IMG/VR virus record: IMGVR_UViG_3300045988_115849
Origin: a virus
DNA: 64,000 nucleotides
Strand: one strand, 5' to 3'
Below, one piece after another: positions 1,486 through 20,171 of the stretch. The notes beneath the pieces were generated by a model. That model did not search any database and was not told the DNA's origin. It was given only the letters and a program-made list of their open reading frames with translations. Every line of letters starts with the position of its first letter. Positions within the stretch are counted from its first letter, which is position 1. The position numbers and the translations under genes are program-made.

Positions 1486-1592
1486 GATATTTATATAACA
1501 TGTTTGTAGTTGGTGTTTCAGTGTATGCAGCAGTAACATTTGGAACTGGTTGGTTGTTTTTGTTAATGTTATTAATTTTAGGAGTTGAGTAG
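1482..1592 (+). CDS. Small hydrophobic peptide (36 aa), below the ORF-track cutoff
   Basis: ATGA start-stop overlap with the upstream ORF. One TM-like segment (FVVGVSVYAAVTFGTGWLFLLMLLILG). Its stop TAG abuts the next ATG. Confidence 0.4.
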   Translation: MRYLYNMFVVGVSVYAAVTFGTGWLFLLMLLILGVE

Positions 1593-1754
1593 ATGATCAC
1601 AAAAGCTATTGTTACACTCTGCAATGTTGTATATGCATTGATCATCAGATGGTTTATGAAAACAGCAAAAACAAATGATAAAGCAACGATCGTAGGTTTT
1701 TCATCCATGATTCTCTTATATGCGTTAAACATTGTTGTGATATGGTGGTGCTAA
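1593..1754 (+). CDS. Small membrane protein (53 aa), below the ORF-track cutoff
   Basis: Starts directly after the preceding stop, and its own stop TAA abuts the ATG at 1755. Two hydrophobic segments. Confidence 0.45.
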   Translation: MITKAIVTLCNVVYALIIRWFMKTAKTNDKATIVGFSSMILLYALNIVVIWWC

Positions 1755-1943
1755 ATGAGTAAAGTTAAAGTCAGTTTCGTTGATGGAAGAGAAGAATATT
1801 TTGATATAGATCGTGATACACATTATTCAGACGATATGTTCTGGTATTCCAAAGATGATGATATGTTTTGTATAAAACGTTCAGCAAGGGATAAGGTCTT
1901 ACTTCCTAGAGAATTTGTAAGATACATATGTATTGCAGATTAA
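1755..1943 (+). CDS. Hypothetical protein
   Basis: 62-aa ORF in a tightly coupled + strand array. Confidence 0.5.
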   Translation: MSKVKVSFVDGREEYFDIDRDTHYSDDMFWYSKDDDMFCIKRSARDKVLLPREFVRYICIAD

Positions 1944-1974
1944 TTATAAACTGTCGAGAAAATCTCGGTAGTTG

Positions 1975-2048
1975 GGACCGTTAACTCAGCGGGTGAGAGT
2001 ATCCGGCTCATAACCGGAAGGCCACAGGTTCGAATCCTGTACGGTCCA
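1975..2048 (+). tRNA. tRNA with CAT anticodon (Met, or Ile2 if lysidine-modified)
   Basis: Hand-folded cloverleaf. Acceptor GGACCGT/ACGGTCC, D stem ACTC/GAGT, anticodon stem TCCGG/CCGGA with loop CTCATAA, T arm ACAGG-TTCGAAT-CCTGT, discriminator A. No CCA is encoded. Confidence 0.85.
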
Positions 2049-2221
2049 TTGAGTGATGCTAACAGCAAATTTTAATGTATTATAAAATGTTTTTGAAGGT
2101 TAATGCACAAGCATCATGTTCTTAGGGACTCATACAGCAAATAAAAAGTACAATGCAACAAAAAAACAAGCCATGACGTATAGCATACTTCACGAGTCCT
2201 GATTATGAAAGAGAGGGAAAT

Positions 2222-3682
2222 ATGAATTTTGCACAAGCAGTGGAAAGAGAAACAAAGTTCACAAAGACAGAGAATGGAGCAGTTGCTTTGAATACTACAG
2301 GCAATGCATGTCTTGATTTGTATTCAACAATTGGAAGTCTTAGAGATGCAGAACTATCAAGAGTTCTATCCTTGTTTGACGAAGCGTACAAAGAAAATCC
2401 GTTACTTGCTACAAAAATCGTATTTTACGCAAGAGATGTAAGAGGTGGATTAGGAGAAAGAAAAGTTTTCCGCGATCTGATTCATCATATGGCTTGCGTA
2501 TACCCTGAAAGTATTAAAAATAACATTTATTGGATTCCTGAATATGGGCGTTACGATGATTGGTACGCATTGGTCGATACGCCTTTAGAACAGGATATGT
2601 GGAACCATATGAAATCACTGATGGTTGAAGATTTCAAAGACTACAACAATGGAAAACCAATATCATTATTGGCTAAATGGTTAAAGACCGCGGATGCAAG
2701 CTCTAAGAAAACAAGGGAGCTTGGAATTAAGACAGCACTTGGTTTTGGTATATCTGTTCGAAATTATAAAAGGATTGTCCGTAATCTTAGAAAATACTTA
2801 AAGATTACGGAAACATATATGTCTGCGAACAAATGGAACGAGATATCTTATCCATCAGTTCCTAGTAGATGTATGTTGAACAACCAATATGCTTTTTATC
2901 GTCATGATGCAGAAAGATTCCAACAGTACAAGGAAGATGTGTCAAACGGAAGGCAAAAGATCAATTCAAGTACACTGTATCCATATGATTTGATCAATGA
3001 AATTGATTCACCATACGAGAGCGATCATGCCATTGCAGAAGCACAGTGGAAGAATCTCCCGAACTATGTAGAACCGGGAAGAAACGTATTAGTTATGGCT
3101 GATGTATCAGGTTCCATGAATGGAAGACCTATGCAAACTTCTATAGGACTTGCAATATATTTTGCAGAAAGAAATATTGGTCCATATCATAATATGTTTA
3201 TGACATTTAGCGCTGACCCTAAATTTGTATCACTAAAAGGGGATACACTATACGAAAAATATAGAAATGTAATGTTTTCGGAATGGGGATTTAATACAGA
3301 CCTGAAAAAAGCATTTGATAAGATTTTGAAGATTGCGATTGATAATCATATAGATCAGGAAGAAATGCCAGAAGCACTTGTTGTCATTTCTGATATGGAA
3401 ATTGATCAGTGCACAAATGATAGTTGGACGTTTTATGATCAGATGGCTGATGAATTTAAAAAACATGGTTATAACATTCCTAACATTGTGTTCTGGAATG
3501 TTCAAAGTAGAAATAATGTTTTTCATGCTGACAGCAACCGAAAAGGTGTTCAGTTATGTTCTGGGCAGTCAGCATCAACATTTCAAAATGTCATTTCCGC
3601 AATTGGTCTTACGCCAATAGAAGCAATGGAAATGGTAATAAATTCAGAAAGATACGATAACATTTCGATTACCTCCAAATAA
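2222..3682 (+). CDS. DUF2828/TROVE-like + vWA protein (Ro60-related architecture)
   Basis: 486 aa. The N-terminus TENGAVALNTTGNACLDLYS...DVRGGLGERK matches the DUF2828 signature as I recall it. The C-terminal half has a vWA MIDAS-like DxSxS motif (MADVSGSM) and VVISDME. Confidence 0.75.
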   Translation: MNFAQAVERETKFTKTENGAVALNTTGNACLDLYSTIGSLRDAELSRVLSLFDEAYKENPLLATKIVFYARDVRGGLGERKVFRDLIHHMACVYPESIKNNIYWIPEYGRYDDWYALVDTPLEQDMWNHMKSLMVEDFKDYNNGKPISLLAKWLKTADASSKKTRELGIKTALGFGISVRNYKRIVRNLRKYLKITETYMSANKWNEISYPSVPSRCMLNNQYAFYRHDAERFQQYKEDVSNGRQKINSSTLYPYDLINEIDSPYESDHAIAEAQWKNLPNYVEPGRNVLVMADVSGSMNGRPMQTSIGLAIYFAERNIGPYHNMFMTFSADPKFVSLKGDTLYEKYRNVMFSEWGFNTDLKKAFDKILKIAIDNHIDQEEMPEALVVISDMEIDQCTNDSWTFYDQMADEFKKHGYNIPNIVFWNVQSRNNVFHADSNRKGVQLCSGQSASTFQNVISAIGLTPIEAMEMVINSERYDNISITSK

Positions 3683-3686
3683 GTTG

Positions 3687-3760
3687 TGGTATATAGCTCA
3701 ATTGGATAGAGCGCAACACTACGAATGTTGAGGATGCCAGTTCAAGTCTGGCTATACCAT
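3687..3760 (+). tRNA. tRNA-Arg (ACG)
   Basis: Hand-folded cloverleaf. Acceptor TGGTATA/TATACCA, D stem GCTC/GAGC, anticodon stem CAACA/TGTTG with loop CTACGAA, T arm GCCAG-TTCAAGT-CTGGC. Confidence 0.85.
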
Positions 3761-3966
3761 TTGTTCGCAATAGCGAACATAAAGTCCTTACTTTCTTAAA
3801 ATTATTTTAGTACGTATGTGAAATTCAAGCCAATGTTGCTGTTGACCGTTATAGCCGGGATGGATTTCTTTTTTTCATGGCAGATTTTTTCACCCTAACT
3901 GGTGAAAAGAAATGTTCGCCTTTAAGTAGGCAAAGATTTCACTCCTTACAATGTTTTTATTTTGTT

Positions 3967-4025
3967 TGCGTATCTGAATATGGTCAGTTTAGCCGGCTAA
4001 ACTCCGGCATACGCATTGTTTTTTT
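3967..4025 (+). terminator. Intrinsic terminator closing the tRNA/TROVE unit
   Basis: Stem TGCGTAT/ATACGCA enclosing the inner palindrome GTTTAGCCGGCTAAAC, followed by TTGTTTTTTT. Confidence 0.55.
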
Positions 4026-4048
4026 AGAATTGACAGGGGATTATAACA

Positions 4049-4267
4049 TTGAGTATGACAGAAATTATCAAAGAAATGAAAAATTATATGACAGAACCGA
4101 TTGAGGGAATGTCGTATGCAGAAAAGGATAAAGAAGGCAATGTTTGGATTCATTGCCCGTGGTGTGGAAAGAAGCAATTTCCTGTTAACCATGATACGAA
4201 AATTAGTCATTTGCAGTATAAATGCAAATCGTCAAACTGCAAAAAAATGTTTGAAATAAATTATTAA
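4049..4267 (+). CDS. Small Cys-rich zinc-ribbon protein (Cys_rich_KTR/Com-like, tentative)
   Basis: CPWCG...(18 aa)...CKSSNC motif pair. The start is uncertain (TTG 4049 or ATG 4055). Confidence 0.5.
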   Translation: MSMTEIIKEMKNYMTEPIEGMSYAEKDKEGNVWIHCPWCGKKQFPVNHDTKISHLQYKCKSSNCKKMFEINY

Positions 4268-4284
4268 TAGTCGCAAGAGCCAAA

Positions 4285-4324
4285 GAGCCGGACGCTTTCA
4301 AGGGAAGGAGTCGGTTCTTTTTTT
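4285..4324 (+). terminator. Possible weak terminator or structured leader directly before terL
   Basis: An 8-bp bulged stem (GAGCCGGAC / GTCGGTTC) followed by six T residues that run into the terL ATG. Confidence 0.3.
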
Positions 4325-6034
4325 ATGCAAGAAGGAAGTTTTGAATGGTATCAATCGGTCTTTAAGTCAATATTGGACGGACAGATGGATTTGTATGAAA
4401 ACCAGAATGATACATACCAATTGTTGCTCAACATGAAGCAAGAATTAACATTTAACAATAAAGAGGTCATGGACTATGCAATCAAGATAAGCAAGTATGC
4501 CCATGAAATGGCTGCATATATGGCAGCAACGACAGGAATGGCGGAATATGACGATCTATACTGGAAGTTTCTGCTTCTGGAAGGTCAGCATTATCAGGTA
4601 GATAGTGGTTTGCTATATCTTGAAAAGAACAGAGTACCTTCTGAGAGGTTCTACGAACCACGTAGATCGGTTTTTATGCAACACGGGATAATTCAATCAT
4701 TGCAAGATTTAATGGACGATAAATTGGACATATTTGCGTTAAGTGTTCCACCCGGTTGTGGAAAGTCAACACTGGAAGACTTTTTCTTATCTCTTGTTGG
4801 TGGTTGGTTTCCAAATTGTTTTAACTTATCTTCTGCCCATAGTAGCATTTTGACACGATCACTGTATGATGGAGTTCTTGAAATTATAAATGATCCAGTA
4901 GAATACACATGGCATGAGATTTTTCCGAATGTGCAGATGCAAGGAACAAACGCAAAAGAAACAACAGTAAACCTTGAAAGAAATGGCCGTTTCAAAACGT
5001 GGACGTTTCGTTCGATTGACGGATCGTTAACAGGTGCGACACGTTGTAATAAATTTCTTACCGCGGACGACTTGGTATCAGGAATTGAAGAAGCATTGAA
5101 TAAAAACCGACTGAAAACACTCTGGACGAAAGTTGCAAACGATTTACGATCAAGACGATTGGACGGTTGCAAAGAGTTCTATATTGCGACACGATGGAGT
5201 GTTCATGATCCGATTGGAAAGCTACAGACACTATATGCAGGTGATCCGAGAGCAAGATTTATTGCAGTACCGGCACTAAATGAAAAAGGCGAAAGCAATT
5301 TCATGTTTACTGTAAATGGATTCTCTAAAGAGTATTTTGAAGATGCAAGAAAAGCTATGGATGATATTTCGTTTAACTGTTTATACCAACAAAAACCAGT
5401 AGAGCGTGAAGGACTATTATTACCGGCGGATGAATTAAGAAGATTTTATCTTGAAAAACATCATGTTCCTGAGGGGGTATCCGGTTATACAGTATTTCCT
5501 AAAAAAGACCCAGATGCTATCTGGGGTGTCTGCGATACAAAAGATAAGGGAACCGACTTTGAATCCCTTCCGATTGCATATCAGTTTGGAGAAGATTTTT
5601 ATATACCGGATGTTGTATTTGACGATGAAACGAATTATGAAATTCTTGATAACAAGACAGCTGCAATTCTTATCAGACATCAACCACATAAGGTGCGCTT
5701 TGAATCAAACCAAGCCGGAGGAAGAATTGCAGATAATATAAGCAAAATGATCAAAGGCAAAGCAAGGACAATTATTGAACCAAAATACACAACAGCAAAT
5801 AAAGAAACCAAAATTTTGGTCAATTCAGATTGGATAAAGAAGCATTGCTTATTTTTAGAACCATCAGAATACCAAGTAAAGTCTGATTATGGAAGATTCA
5901 TGGAAAATGTAACTTCTTACACAACAAAGGCGAAGGTTCTGCATGATGATGGTCCTGACTCATTAGCTATGTTAGCAGAATTTGTATCAAAGCCAGAAGC
6001 ACGACAAAGTTATATCAGACAAAGTCCAGTTTAG
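4325..6034 (+). CDS. terL: Terminase large subunit
   Basis: 569 aa. Walker A-like PPGCGKST and Walker B-like FLTADDLVSG, with a C-terminal nuclease-like half. Lies upstream of the portal gene. Confidence 0.9.
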   Translation: MQEGSFEWYQSVFKSILDGQMDLYENQNDTYQLLLNMKQELTFNNKEVMDYAIKISKYAHEMAAYMAATTGMAEYDDLYWKFLLLEGQHYQVDSGLLYLEKNRVPSERFYEPRRSVFMQHGIIQSLQDLMDDKLDIFALSVPPGCGKSTLEDFFLSLVGGWFPNCFNLSSAHSSILTRSLYDGVLEIINDPVEYTWHEIFPNVQMQGTNAKETTVNLERNGRFKTWTFRSIDGSLTGATRCNKFLTADDLVSGIEEALNKNRLKTLWTKVANDLRSRRLDGCKEFYIATRWSVHDPIGKLQTLYAGDPRARFIAVPALNEKGESNFMFTVNGFSKEYFEDARKAMDDISFNCLYQQKPVEREGLLLPADELRRFYLEKHHVPEGVSGYTVFPKKDPDAIWGVCDTKDKGTDFESLPIAYQFGEDFYIPDVVFDDETNYEILDNKTAAILIRHQPHKVRFESNQAGGRIADNISKMIKGKARTIIEPKYTTANKETKILVNSDWIKKHCLFLEPSEYQVKSDYGRFMENVTSYTTKAKVLHDDGPDSLAMLAEFVSKPEARQSYIRQSPV

Positions 6035-20035: not shown

Positions 20036-20046
20036 TTTTAATAATT

Positions 20047-20118
20047 ACAGCAAACTAGCCATCGTGTGCCGGCGAAAAGAACGTCTTTCCTCGTGTACGT
20101 TCCGTTTGCTGTTTTTAT
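20047..20118 (+). terminator. Second terminator-like long-range hairpin
   Basis: ACAGCAAAC/GTTTGCTGT closes a 48-nt loop and is followed by TTTTTAT. Confidence 0.4.
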
Positions 20119-20171
20119 ATTTTAACATGAGGGTGCACACGTTAATGTTCAAATAACCACGAGGTGATAAT

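What the first reader, a model, noticed from the sequence alone, without database searches (positions are those of the whole stretch)
1975..4025. Ro60-like (DUF2828/TROVE + vWA) gene sandwiched between two tRNA genes as one terminated unit
The 486-aa ORF has the DUF2828 N-terminal signature and a vWA MIDAS motif. That is the Ro60/Rsr architecture, and Ro60/Rsr proteins bind Y RNAs, including tRNA-like YrlA in bacteria. A canonical tRNA(CAT) lies 174 nt upstream and a tRNA-Arg(ACG) lies 4 nt downstream. A terminator closes the unit at 3967-4025.

The 173-nt spacer 2049-2221 is non-coding. It contains long-range pairings (TGATGCT 2053 with AGCATCA 2110; GGACTC 2125 with GAGTCC 2194) that could form a Y-RNA-like stem.

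A phage-borne Ro-type RNP module linked to tRNAs suggests RNA quality control, tRNA repair, or a counter to host anticodon nucleases.
Basis: partly seen in the sequence, partly recalled or inferred. Interest (0 to 1): 0.72.

Follow-up and report, generated by a model that had tools for sequence, protein, structure and literature searches.

The report
Phage Ro60-like protein with own Y-RNAs
A gut phage carries, between two tRNA genes, a ring-shaped Ro60-like RNA-binding protein gene preceded by two small hairpin RNAs of an apparently undescribed family (closing stem plus invariant ACAGCAA) that sits beside this gene family in phages of many bacterial phyla and resembles the unexplained 'Class I' RNAs of social amoebae.

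Summary
tRNA(CAT) lies at 1975-2048, a 486-aa ORF at 2222-3682, tRNA-Arg(ACG) at 3686-3761, and a hairpin plus U7 at 3967-4026.

The protein is DUF2828+DUF7788 (PHROG 850). It has no Pfam TROVE hit, but its AlphaFold model matches Ro60 structures over the full length, and its MIDAS residues are invariant.

Each is a 7-bp stem, a 2-nt linker, then invariant ACAGCAA opening a variable loop, with G after the 3' arm. These are the only two such elements in the 64 kb.

The same module flanks the homologous gene, always on its strand:
- in 60 of 63 relatives at about 59% identity;
- in 14 of 19 lineages sampled (the window plus 18 phages, hosts in about six phyla), and 16 of 19 counting variant cores.

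Longer forms enclose a YrlA-style permuted tRNA-like domain, or sit inside tRNA genes as a circular permutation. tRNA arrays adjoin the gene in most lineages.

Best reading: a Ro60-paralog RNP with its own Y-like RNA class. Binding and function are inferred. No matching Rfam family or paper was found. The module resembles Dictyostelium Class I RNAs, but only below the Rfam threshold.

The parts
1975..2048 (+). tRNA with anticodon CAT. It is elongator-type: G1-C72 is paired and there is no GGG/CCC anticodon stem. Met versus Ile2 is unresolved.
   Evidence: ARAGORN. Rfam tRNA 73.4 bits. Present in all 16 close relatives, with identical sequence in 13.
2053..2118 (+). Y-like RNA module 1. 5' arm GTGATGC 2053-2059, linker TA, invariant ACAGCAA 2062-2068, 42-nt loop, 3' arm GCATCAT 2111-2117, then G2118.
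   Evidence: Strict scan. The MFE fold keeps the closing stem. The only substitution seen in close relatives (position 2082) falls in the loop.
2125..2201 (+). Y-like RNA module 2. 5' arm GGGACTC 2125-2131, linker AT, ACAGCAA 2134-2140, 53-nt loop, 3' arm GAGTCCT 2194-2200, then G2201. It ends 20 nt before the ATG.
   Evidence: Strict scan. The MFE and centroid folds keep the stem. Sub-threshold Rfam Dicty_Class_I_RNA hit at 2126-2201, 24.8 bits. The same position (-90) and stem recur in relatives at about 59% identity.
2211..2218 (+). Purine-rich ribosome-binding-site-like stretch GAGAGGGA, ahead of the ATG at 2222.
   Evidence: Read from the sequence.
2222..3682 (+). 486-aa Ro60 paralogue. 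An alpha-helical N-terminal part (about residues 26-280) is followed by a vWA/DUF7788 domain (residues 289-455) with a MIDAS site at D294/S296/S298 (nt 3101-3115), T359 and D391.
   Evidence: Pfam DUF2828 and DUF7788. PHROG 850 at 1e-131. AF2 model with pLDDT 77.8 and pTM 0.77. Foldseek PDB hits 9KOP and 9L5Y (phiLo Ro60) and 1YVP. BFVD hits. Invariant MIDAS residues.
3686..3761 (+). tRNA-Arg(ACG), starting 3 nt after the stop codon.
   Evidence: ARAGORN. Rfam tRNA 66.2 bits. Identical in 15 relatives.
3762..3779 (+). Tight 7-bp hairpin directly after tRNA-Arg. Its role is unknown.
   Evidence: Fold of 3762-3800: -9.9 kcal/mol, z -4.1.
3967..4026 (+). Terminator-like branched hairpin (3967-4015) followed by U7 (4020-4026). 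It probably marks the end of the unit.
   Evidence: Fold: -16.9 kcal/mol, z -1.6. Not listed by the simple terminator scan.

Best explanation
Window 1975-4026 is one same-strand unit of a gut phage. In order it holds tRNA(CAT), two small Y-RNA-like hairpin RNAs, a 486-aa Ro60 paralogue (DUF2828+DUF7788, PHROG 850), tRNA-Arg(ACG), and a terminator-like hairpin.

**Shown here**
- The protein model has the Ro60 fold over its full length and an intact MIDAS site.
- The two spacer elements belong to a deeply conserved RNA module: a 7-bp closing helix whose sequence varies while staying complementary, a 2-3-nt linker, invariant single-stranded ACAGCAA, a variable loop, and G after the 3' arm.
- This module lies next to DUF2828 genes, on the gene's strand, in phages of Bacillota, Actinomycetota, Pseudomonadota, Campylobacterota and Fusobacteriota. 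A cyanophage has variant forms.
- The module comes in three forms:
  - short, as in the window;
  - long, enclosing an anticodon-like arm, a T arm, an acceptor-like hairpin and a D arm, which is the YrlA layout;
  - embedded between the D arm and the anticodon arm of tRNA genes, a circular permutation of the long form.

**Inferred**
- tRNA processing (RNase P and RNase Z) cuts the transcript and releases the small RNAs and the mRNA.
- The protein binds these RNAs through the helix plus ACAGCAA. This would mirror Ro60 binding the GGUCCGA/GNCGAA helix of Y RNAs.
- The resulting RNP acts on RNA metabolism during infection. The likeliest roles are modulating host ribonucleases or protecting and surveying the phage's tRNA pool against host defences.
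- Module 2 abuts the ribosome-binding site, so bound protein may also feed back on its own translation.
For: **Protein**
- Pfam and PHROG hits.
- AF2 model with pTM 0.77.
- The top PDB fold hits are all Ro60/TROVE rings over about 500 aligned columns: 9KOP (E 6e-9, TM 0.60), 9L5Y (phiLo Ro60) and 1YVP, 2I91, 9NEP (Xenopus/Ro60), all at probability 1.0. Hits restricted to the vWA domain come only after these.
- MIDAS residues are invariant.

**RNA**
- Exactly two modules in the 64-kb window, against 0.27 in shuffles.
- In the window plus 10 diverse phage loci: 28 hits on the + strand, 0 on the - strand, against 1.85 in shuffles.
- In gut-phage relatives: 132 hits on +, 0 on -, in 451 kb. 60 of 63 loci have a module within 300 nt upstream of the ATG.
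- 14 of 19 lineages have the exact motif beside the gene, and 16 of 19 counting variant cores.
- All 7 stem positions show 3-4 pair types.
- The spacer is invariant in relatives where the ORF differs by about 3%.
- Long forms fold into the YrlA layout. Sub-threshold Rfam YrlA hits lie upstream of the gene in Enterococcus phage EFDG1: 44.9 bits, E 9e-7.

**Precedent**
- Ro60/Rsr genes have adjacent same-strand Y RNAs in 254 bacteria and 22 phages (PMC4201824).
- Thermus phage phiLo Ro60 binds two RNAs encoded upstream of its gene and attenuates PNPase (PMC12135203).
- The Ro60-like Bas63 gp130, directly upstream of that phage's tRNA genes, counters the Ppl defence (preprint 10.1101/2024.10.10.617714).
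- An RNA ligase gene lies next to the homologue in two jumbo phages.
Against: - There is no expression or binding data for this locus or for any DUF2828 protein with these RNAs.
- Single-sequence folding energies for the two window modules are unremarkable (z 0.0 and -1.7). The support is comparative.
- Instances for the pair-count table were selected for perfect pairing, so that table is partly circular.
- No module was seen within 2 kb of the gene in two jumbo phages, and one T4-like vibriophage is ambiguous.
- The Pfam TROVE model does not match, so RNA binding rests on fold similarity.
- The function (anti-defence, tRNA-related) comes from one preprint phenotype in a putative homologue (homology not checked here) and from gene neighbourhoods.
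Confidence: 0.65

Rival explanations
1. The two hairpins are only a cis-acting leader of the mRNA, not free small RNAs. They would act as an autoregulatory operator or a 5' stabiliser. The protein, or a host factor, would bind them to control translation of the ORF.
For: Module 2 ends 20 nt before the ATG and abuts the ribosome-binding site. Modules end 17-40 nt before the start codon in the Campylobacter, Sinorhizobium and Fusobacterium phages.
Against: - Copies lie downstream of the gene in mycobacteriophage Tourach (after a terminator-like hairpin), in Staphylococcus CoN_Ph13, in Klebsiella KP13-16 and in Felixounavirus JH2.
- There are 2-9 copies per locus, some more than 1 kb away and interleaved with tRNAs.
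- Long forms carry a complete tRNA-like domain.
- This rival does not exclude a dual role.
Confidence: 0.15
2. The stem+ACAGCAA elements are processing or stability signals of phage tRNA operons, for example ribonuclease entry sites or punctuation. They would be unrelated to the DUF2828 protein, and the gene would simply sit in the tRNA region, a known hot spot for accessory genes.
For: Modules and the gene both lie in or beside tRNA arrays in most lineages. Some modules are inside tRNA genes.
Against: - Tourach, Fusobacterium Fnu1 and Aeromonas LAh_9 have modules next to the gene but no tRNA gene in the fetched flanks (ARAGORN for the first two; annotation only for LAh_9; modules).
- The motif is the same in phages whose hosts have very different RNase sets.
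- In the whole 64-kb window the only two copies are those abutting the gene.
Confidence: 0.1
3. The protein is a vWA/MIDAS protein-interaction factor that merely shares a helical-repeat-plus-vWA shape with Ro60. It would bind no RNA, and the neighbouring hairpins would serve some other partner.
For: There is no Pfam TROVE hit. Sequence identity to Ro60 structures is only 12-17%. The model is of medium confidence, with pLDDT 77.8.
Against: - The eight best PDB hits are all Ro60/TROVE rings aligned over the full length. Hits restricted to the vWA domain come only after them.
- A conserved RNA is tightly coupled to the gene across phyla. That is the hallmark of Ro60-Y RNA loci (PMC4201824).
Confidence: 0.07

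Closest known systems
Bacterial Ro60 (Rsr) with YrlA/YrlB Y RNAs (RYPER complex with PNPase)
   Same: - Full-length fold match to solved Ro60 structures, which are HEAT-repeat rings capped by a vWA domain with a MIDAS site.
- Small RNAs are encoded next to the gene on the same strand.
- A terminal helix carries the conserved motif on its 5' side.
- One RNA class contains a permuted tRNA-like domain (V, T, acceptor-like and D arms).
   Different: - A different protein family: PF11443/PF25043 rather than PF05731 TROVE.
- A different recognition motif: single-stranded ACAGCAA after the helix, instead of GNCGAA(N0-1)G within it (PMC4201824).
- Rfam Y_RNA and YrlA models do not match the window.
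- No partner nuclease is known.
Thermus phage phiLo Ro60 with Yrl1/Yrl2 (PDB 9KOP, 9L5Y; PMC12135203)
   Same: It is phage-encoded and is the best structural match (TM 0.58-0.63). Two small RNAs are encoded just upstream of the gene.
   Different: Sequence identity is only 17% and a profile search does not detect it. Its RNAs were picked by the CGAA motif. No tRNA context is reported.
Felixounavirus Bas63 gp130 (PhageMaP preprint 10.1101/2024.10.10.617714)
   Same: It is described as Ro60-like by structure and lies directly upstream of the tRNA array, as does the DUF2828 gene of Felixounavirus JH2. The authors speculate that some 'tRNAs' there are Y RNAs.
   Different: It has an experimental phenotype (counter of the Ppl defence), but no partner RNA was defined. 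That gp130 is the DUF2828 homologue is my inference from genus and gene order; I did not check it by sequence.
Dictyostelium Class I RNAs (Rfam RF01414; PMC7919456)
   Same: - A short stem (6-7 bp) joins the 5' and 3' ends.
- A conserved motif lies directly 3' of the 5' arm. Its Rfam consensus CCUUACAGCAA contains the phage heptamer.
- The rest of the loop is variable, and the RNA ends ...CUG(U).
- Length is 42-65 nt, against 35-105 nt for short phage modules.
- RF01414 is the only non-tRNA Rfam family whose hits coincide with the modules.
   Different: - Scores are 23.6-28.6 bits, below the gathering score of 41.5.
- Class I RNAs are eukaryotic, have their own promoter (DUSE), and are reported as unique to Dictyostelia.
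- The only named binding protein is the RRM protein Rnp1A.
- Whether Dictyostelium encodes a DUF2828 protein was not testable here.

Membership tests
DUF2828/DUF7788 'Ro-like RNA-binding protein' family (Pfam PF11443+PF25043; PHROG 850) | Both Pfam domains above the gathering score, in N-to-C order | tested here: met
   144.1 bits (cut-off 29) and 146.8 bits (cut-off 27.1). PHROG 850 at 1e-131, full length.
DUF2828/DUF7788 'Ro-like RNA-binding protein' family (Pfam PF11443+PF25043; PHROG 850) | Full-length homologues in phages | tested here: met
   710 GenBank phage records, 706 of them covering at least 80% of the query. 8087 clusters at 50% identity with E<=1e-3.
Ro60/TROVE (Pfam PF05731) orthologues | Match to the TROVE sequence model, or sequence-detectable similarity to Ro60 | tested here: not met
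   No TROVE hit at E<=1. No Ro60 chain found by phmmer or by profile search of the PDB at E<=10.
Ro60/TROVE (Pfam PF05731) orthologues | Full-length fold match to solved Ro60 (HEAT ring plus vWA) | tested here: met
   Foldseek hits 9KOP, 9L5Y, 1YVP, 2I91, 9NEP and 1YVR at E 6e-9 to 4e-5, probability 1.0, 500-560 aligned columns, TM 0.39-0.63. This rests on a model with pLDDT 77.8. I did not inspect ring closure in the model directly.
Ro60/TROVE (Pfam PF05731) orthologues | MIDAS motif DxSxS...T...D in the vWA domain | tested here: met
   D294, S296, S298, T359 and D391 are invariant in 21 sequences.
Y RNA / YrlA (Rfam RF00019, RF02553) | Match to the covariance models; GNCGAA(N0-1)G or GGUCCGA motif in the terminal helix | tested here: not met
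   No Y_RNA or YrlA hit in 1500-4500 at E<=10. The spacer contains no CGAA. Only sub-threshold YrlA hits occur in a relative (EFDG1, 44.9 bits against a gathering score of 69).
Y RNA / YrlA (Rfam RF00019, RF02553) | Architecture and context: terminal helix plus large loop, encoded within 4 kb of the Ro-type gene on the same strand | tested here: met
Y RNA / YrlA (Rfam RF00019, RF02553) | Physical binding to the Ro-type protein | not testable with these tools
   Needs EMSA, CLIP or RIP-seq.
Dictyostelium Class I RNA (Rfam RF01414) | Score at or above the gathering score (41.5 bits) | tested here: not met
   24.8 bits at window 2126-2201. 28.6, 23.7 and 23.6 bits in relatives.
Dictyostelium Class I RNA (Rfam RF01414) | Short terminal stem, the 11-nt motif next to the 5' arm, and a variable remainder | tested here: inconclusive
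   The stem and the ACAGCAA core are shared, and the linker is pyrimidine-rich in many copies. The DUSE promoter and eukaryotic context are absent.
Intrinsic terminator | GC-rich hairpin directly followed by a U run | tested here: inconclusive
   Branched hairpin of -16.9 kcal/mol plus U7 with a 4-nt gap. The consensus scan did not call it.

The most novel reading that the evidence does not exclude
The stem+ACAGCAA RNAs would be the cognate 'Y RNAs' of the whole DUF2828/DUF7788 branch of Ro60-like proteins. That branch occurs in phages and in giant viruses of protists, and DUF2828 is also reported in eukaryotes, mainly plants (papers). Under this reading the abundant Class I RNAs of dictyostelid amoebae would be the eukaryotic members of the same RNA family. 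Their function has been unknown since 2004, and they are currently held to be unique to Dictyostelia. They would then work as partners of a DUF2828-type Ro60 paralogue. The tRNA genes carrying the permuted module would be tRNAs, or tRNA mimics, built to be held by this protein.
Probability: 0.25. Interest if true: 0.92.

Novelty: new variant of a known kind. Interest (0 to 1): 0.8.

Why it matters
**For the Ro60 field.** Ro60-Y RNA particles are a classic but still poorly understood RNP. Here a large sister family, annotated only as 'Ro-like' or DUF2828, gets a concrete candidate RNA partner with a simple, mutable signature. The family appears in 710 GenBank phage records and thousands of metagenomic clusters. 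Several cultivable phages carry the pair: Felix O1-like phages, Listeria P100/A511-like phages, the Staphylococcus Twort-like phage Alsa_2, Enterococcus Schiekvirus, and mycobacteriophage cluster L. Binding, processing and phenotypes are therefore directly testable.

**For phage-host conflict.** A putative homologue (Bas63 gp130) already has an anti-defence phenotype against Ppl, and the RNAs may be the missing component. The recurrent fusion of the module with tRNA or tRNA-like bodies ties the particle to the phage tRNA pool, a current focus of phage-host conflict research.

**For Dictyostelium.** If the resemblance to Class I RNAs reflects common descent or a shared binding mode, it gives a first mechanistic handle on those RNAs.

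Tried and rejected
- **Rfam Y_RNA and YrlA models on the window.** No hit at E<=10. The RNAs are not canonical Y RNAs.
- **PDB sequence searches, single sequence and profile.** Ro60 was not reached. Only fold comparison shows the relationship.
- **Covariance model R1.** I built it from 31 modules with truncated loops. On real sequence it cannot bridge the 40-110-nt loops: the best window hit is 17.7 bits and takes the wrong 3' arm. I dropped it and used an explicit stem+motif scanner with dinucleotide shuffles instead.
- **ARAGORN in intron mode on the 115-130-nt tRNA genes.** It gave inconsistent intron positions and anticodons. Reading the sequences suggests the insert lies between the D arm and the anticodon arm, not in the anticodon loop.
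- **Other ACAGCAA sites in the window.** The rest are in coding sequence or, at 20047, form a terminator stem, and they lack the module. The + strand excess of the bare heptamer is probably a coding-strand effect.
- **Literature.** No held paper links DUF2828 proteins to an RNA motif. The ACAGCAA text search returned only noise.
- **Dictyostelium DUF2828.** I could not obtain a Dictyostelium or other eukaryotic DUF2828 sequence with the tools. BFVD ids are not retrievable, and homologue lists are filled by phage proteins.
- **Unavailable papers.** Avesson 2011, which lists the four Class I-binding proteins, and the 2020 Ro60 review are not held.
Full report
**1. What is there.** ARAGORN finds two tRNA genes in the 64-kb window: tRNA(CAT) at 1975-2048 and tRNA-Arg(ACG) at 3686-3761, both on the + strand. 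The Rfam tRNA model scores them 73.4 and 66.2 bits. Between them lies a 486-aa ORF, 2222-3682. A 173-nt spacer without a + strand ORF of 50 aa or more precedes it. tRNA-Arg follows 3 nt after the stop codon. After tRNA-Arg come a tight hairpin (3762-3779, z -4.1) and, further on, a branched hairpin at 3967-4015 (-16.9 kcal/mol) followed by U7. The simple terminator scan did not list the branched hairpin, so it is a plausible but unproven terminator. The rest of the window reads as a phage genome: a large + strand ORF block including a 569-aa ORF at 4325-6034 that I read as the terminase large subunit (not tested), and ORFs of 1148-2074 aa that look like tail proteins. Sixteen IMG/VR contigs carry the gene at 95-100% amino-acid identity. 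All 15 full-length ones have the same two tRNAs.

**2. The protein.** Pfam gives DUF2828 (7e-42) and DUF7788 (7e-43). VWA_2 reaches only E 0.089 and TROVE does not hit. PHROG 850, named 'RNA-binding protein', matches end to end at 1e-131. Sequence searches of the PDB do not reach Ro60.

An AlphaFold2 model built from 21 homologues has pLDDT 77.8 and pTM 0.77. Its eight best PDB matches are all Ro60/TROVE structures aligned over 500-560 columns:
- 9KOP, 'Trove domain' (E 6e-9, TM 0.60/0.63);
- 9L5Y, the Ro60 of Thermus phage phiLo;
- 1YVP, 2I91, 9NEP and 1YVR, Xenopus/Ro60.

All have probability 1.0, and matches restricted to the vWA domain come only after them. The MIDAS residues D294, S296, S298, T359 and D391 are invariant. 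The protein is therefore a Ro60 paralogue by fold but not a TROVE-family orthologue by sequence.

The family is large:
- 710 GenBank phage records, including Felixounavirus, Listeria Pecentumvirus, Bacillus Tsamsavirus, Enterococcus Schiekvirus, Staphylococcus, Campylobacter, Vibrio and mycobacteriophage cluster L, where it is annotated 'Ro-like RNA binding protein';
- 8087 clusters at 50% identity;
- giant viruses of protists.

**3. The spacer.**
- Copy 1: GTGATGC (2053-2059), TA, ACAGCAA (2062-2068), a 42-nt loop, GCATCAT (2111-2117), G.
- Copy 2: GGGACTC (2125-2131), AT, ACAGCAA (2134-2140), a 53-nt loop, GAGTCCT (2194-2200), G.

I ran a strict scan: 7 bp with at most one G-U pair, a 2-3-nt linker, ACAGCAA, a 12-170-nt loop, and G after the 3' arm. 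It finds exactly these two sites in the window and none on the minus strand, against 0.27 per dinucleotide shuffle. Single-sequence folding is unremarkable (z 0.0 and -1.7), so the case rests on comparison. In 12 of 15 close relatives the spacer has no substitution, while the ORF differs at 40-52 of 1461 positions in those same relatives and the 500 nt upstream differ at up to 47. The few spacer changes seen fall in loops.

**4. Conservation across phages.** In 63 gut-phage loci whose protein is about 59% identical, 60 have a module ending within 300 nt upstream of the ATG, typically at -90 and -177 or at -70 and -140. There are 132 hits on the gene strand and none on the other strand in 451 kb. 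Stems differ between copies while staying complementary, for example GTGATGC/GCATCAT, GGGACAC/GTGTCCT, GTGACGC/GCGTCAT, GGGACTC/GAGTCCT and GTGACCC/GGGTCAT.

More tellingly, the module lies beside the homologous gene in unrelated phages:

| Phage | Copies and position |
|---|---|
| Listeria AG20 | 3, upstream |
| Bacillus Skywalker | 1 in the gap upstream of the gene, 2 more in the tRNA array further upstream, plus one ACAGCUA variant |
| Mycobacterium Tourach | 3, downstream |
| Enterococcus EFDG1 | 2, upstream |
| Campylobacter F371 | 2, upstream |
| Staphylococcus CoN_Ph13 | 3, downstream |
| Fusobacterium Fnu1 | 1, upstream |
| Sinorhizobium phiM12 | 2, upstream |
| Escherichia JH2 | 2, downstream in the tRNA array |
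| Aeromonas LAh_9 | 3 |
| Klebsiella KP13-16 | 3 |
| Pseudoalteromonas J2-1 | 2 |
| Vibrio MS02 | at least 3 |

Staphylococcus Alsa_2 and Synechococcus B23 have variant cores: ACAGCYAA, and UCAGCAA or ACAGCAU. Two jumbo phages show none within 2 kb, and Vibrio XZ1 is ambiguous. In the window plus the first ten loci there are 28 hits on the gene strand and 0 on the other, against 1.85 +/- 1.3 in shuffles. In an alignment of 31 instances all seven stem positions show 3-4 pair types. Those instances were chosen for pairing, so the table illustrates the pattern rather than proving it. No Rfam 15 family covers the module, and I found no paper describing it.

**5. Three forms of one architecture.** Short forms, 35-105 nt, are a stem plus the motif plus a variable loop, as in the window. 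Long forms, 120-130 nt, occur in JH2, EFDG1, Skywalker and Tourach. They fold as the closing stem with ACAGCAA, enclosing a hairpin, a T arm (GGUUCGAnUCC), a 7-bp acceptor-like hairpin and a D arm. That is the V-T-AS-D layout described for YrlA (PMC4201824). EFDG1 also gives sub-threshold Rfam YrlA hits upstream of the gene (44.9 bits, E 9e-7).

In the gut-phage relatives the Rfam tRNA model finds 115-130-nt tRNA genes, and cyanophage B23 has an annotated 110-nt 'tRNA-OTHER' of the same kind. These carry, after the D arm, a hairpin of the form NNRUCAUG-UUU-GUGAYNN followed by ACAGCAA and then an anticodon arm. L056 2184-2301, for example, has a regular UUUCA-CUGUUAA-UGAAA arm. Read around the circle, the order of elements matches the long form, so these are circular permutations with the ends in the acceptor stem. 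I read this from the sequences; it has not been verified by probing.

**6. tRNA linkage.**
- All 54 gut-phage loci with enough flank have a same-strand tRNA within 2 kb upstream, and 24 also have one within 200 nt downstream. All 303 tRNAs are on the gene strand.
- Arrays of 11, 21, 20, 5 and 3 tRNAs adjoin the gene in AG20, Skywalker, JH2, EFDG1 and F371.
- B23 and KP13-16 have arrays downstream.
- Tourach, Fnu1 and XZ1 have no tRNA gene in the fetched flanks by ARAGORN.
- LAh_9, MS02 and J2-1 have none annotated within 2 kb, but I did not scan them with ARAGORN.

The modules therefore follow the gene more faithfully than the tRNAs do.

**7. Mechanism.**

*Shown:* the Ro60-like fold with an intact MIDAS site; a conserved, strand-specific, structured RNA module coupled to the gene; and its fusion with tRNA-like bodies.

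*Inferred by analogy:*
- Ro60/Rsr binds the 5' strand of the terminal helix of Y RNAs and is tethered to PNPase (PMC4201824).
- phiLo Ro60 binds two upstream-encoded RNAs and attenuates PNPase (PMC12135203).
- By the same logic the protein would bind the helix plus ACAGCAA, and the RNP would act on RNA turnover, or on protection of the phage tRNA pool, during infection.

*Indirect functional hints:*
- The Ro60-like Bas63 gp130, directly upstream of that phage's tRNA genes, is required to overcome the Ppl defence (preprint).
- An RNA ligase gene lies next to the homologue in Serratia BF and Salmonella PHA46.
- LeBron gp53 is toxic when overexpressed, and that phage also encodes an RNA ligase and a polynucleotide kinase (PMC13148394).

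In the window, RNase P and RNase Z processing of the flanking tRNAs would release a piece holding module 1, module 2 and the ORF. Module 2 abuts the ribosome-binding site, so autoregulation is possible as well.

**8. The Dictyostelium resemblance.** The only non-tRNA Rfam family whose hits coincide with the modules is Dicty_Class_I_RNA. It scores 24.8 bits at 2126-2201 and 28.6, 23.7 and 23.6 bits in relatives, all below the gathering score of 41.5. The reason is a shared design: a short stem joining the RNA ends, a motif right after the 5' arm (Rfam consensus CCUUACAGCAA), a variable remainder, and an ending in ...CUG(U). Class I RNAs are described as starting AAG and ending CUGU, as having unknown function, and as unique to Dictyostelia (PMC7919456). 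Homologues of the protein occur in giant viruses of protists, and DUF2828 is also reported in eukaryotes, mainly plants (papers). I could not test whether Dictyostelium has one. I treat this as a lead with a probability of about 0.25.

**9. Verdict.** It needs three corrections. The protein is a paralogous family, not TROVE. The RNAs are a distinct class not described in Rfam or in the papers I could search, rather than YrlA. The function remains inferred. I rate it a new variant of a known kind.

Noticed in passing
L040 1669-1787, 1940-2061, 2117-2234, 2240-2366; L056 2184-2301, 2306-2426, 2508-2626; L107 3869-3978: Relatives carry 110-130-nt tRNA genes with a 45-60-nt insert after the D arm. 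The Rfam tRNA model scores the 115-130-nt gut-phage copies 42-50 bits with a large internal insertion. The insert is the stem+ACAGCAA module in circularly permuted form. ARAGORN misses these genes in default mode and places 'introns' inconsistently. The window itself has none.
   Followed up: partly
L110 289-1548 (Serratia phage BF); L114 480-1688 (Salmonella phage PHA46): In two jumbo phages an annotated RNA ligase gene lies within 450 nt upstream of the DUF2828 homologue. No ACAGCAA module was seen within 2 kb.
   Followed up: no
L033 4513-4584, L034, L035 (tRNA with anticodon tca); L056 2714-2809; L106 6638-6713 (anticodon tta): Suppressor-type tRNAs (anticodons UCA and UUA) lie right next to the homologous gene in several relatives. 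This hints at stop-codon recoding in those phages.
   Followed up: no
window 1975-2048: tRNA(CAT) has G1-C72 paired and no GGG/CCC anticodon stem, so it is not an initiator. It has C4-G69 and C5-G68, which I recall as TilS determinants of E. coli tRNA-Ile2. It may therefore decode AUA rather than AUG.
   Followed up: partly
window 3780-3966: About 190 nt between the post-tRNA hairpin and the terminator-like hairpin has no convincing ORF. Positions 3780-3879 are unchanged in the four relatives compared, while 3880-3911 is a cluster of substitutions. Another small RNA or a regulatory region is possible.
   Followed up: no
window 20040-20140: An intergenic ACAGCAAAC...GUUUGCUGU hairpin followed by a U run lies after the 1537-aa ORF. 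It is an ordinary terminator whose stem happens to contain the heptamer, not a module.
   Followed up: yes
L032 4905-4976: An Rfam int-alpA RNA hit (55 bits, gathering score 35.8) lies directly after two tRNAs downstream of the homologous gene.
   Followed up: no
L108 1896-2001 (Aeromonas phage LAh_9): The annotated CDS start (1896) lies about 100 nt upstream of where similarity begins (2001) and overlaps two predicted modules. The start codon is probably annotated too early.
   Followed up: no
L101 1431-2003 (EFDG1); L103 1970-2371 and 4831-5397; L112 1011-1361: Homing or HNH endonuclease genes are interspersed with the tRNA, module and DUF2828 region in several phages.
   Followed up: no
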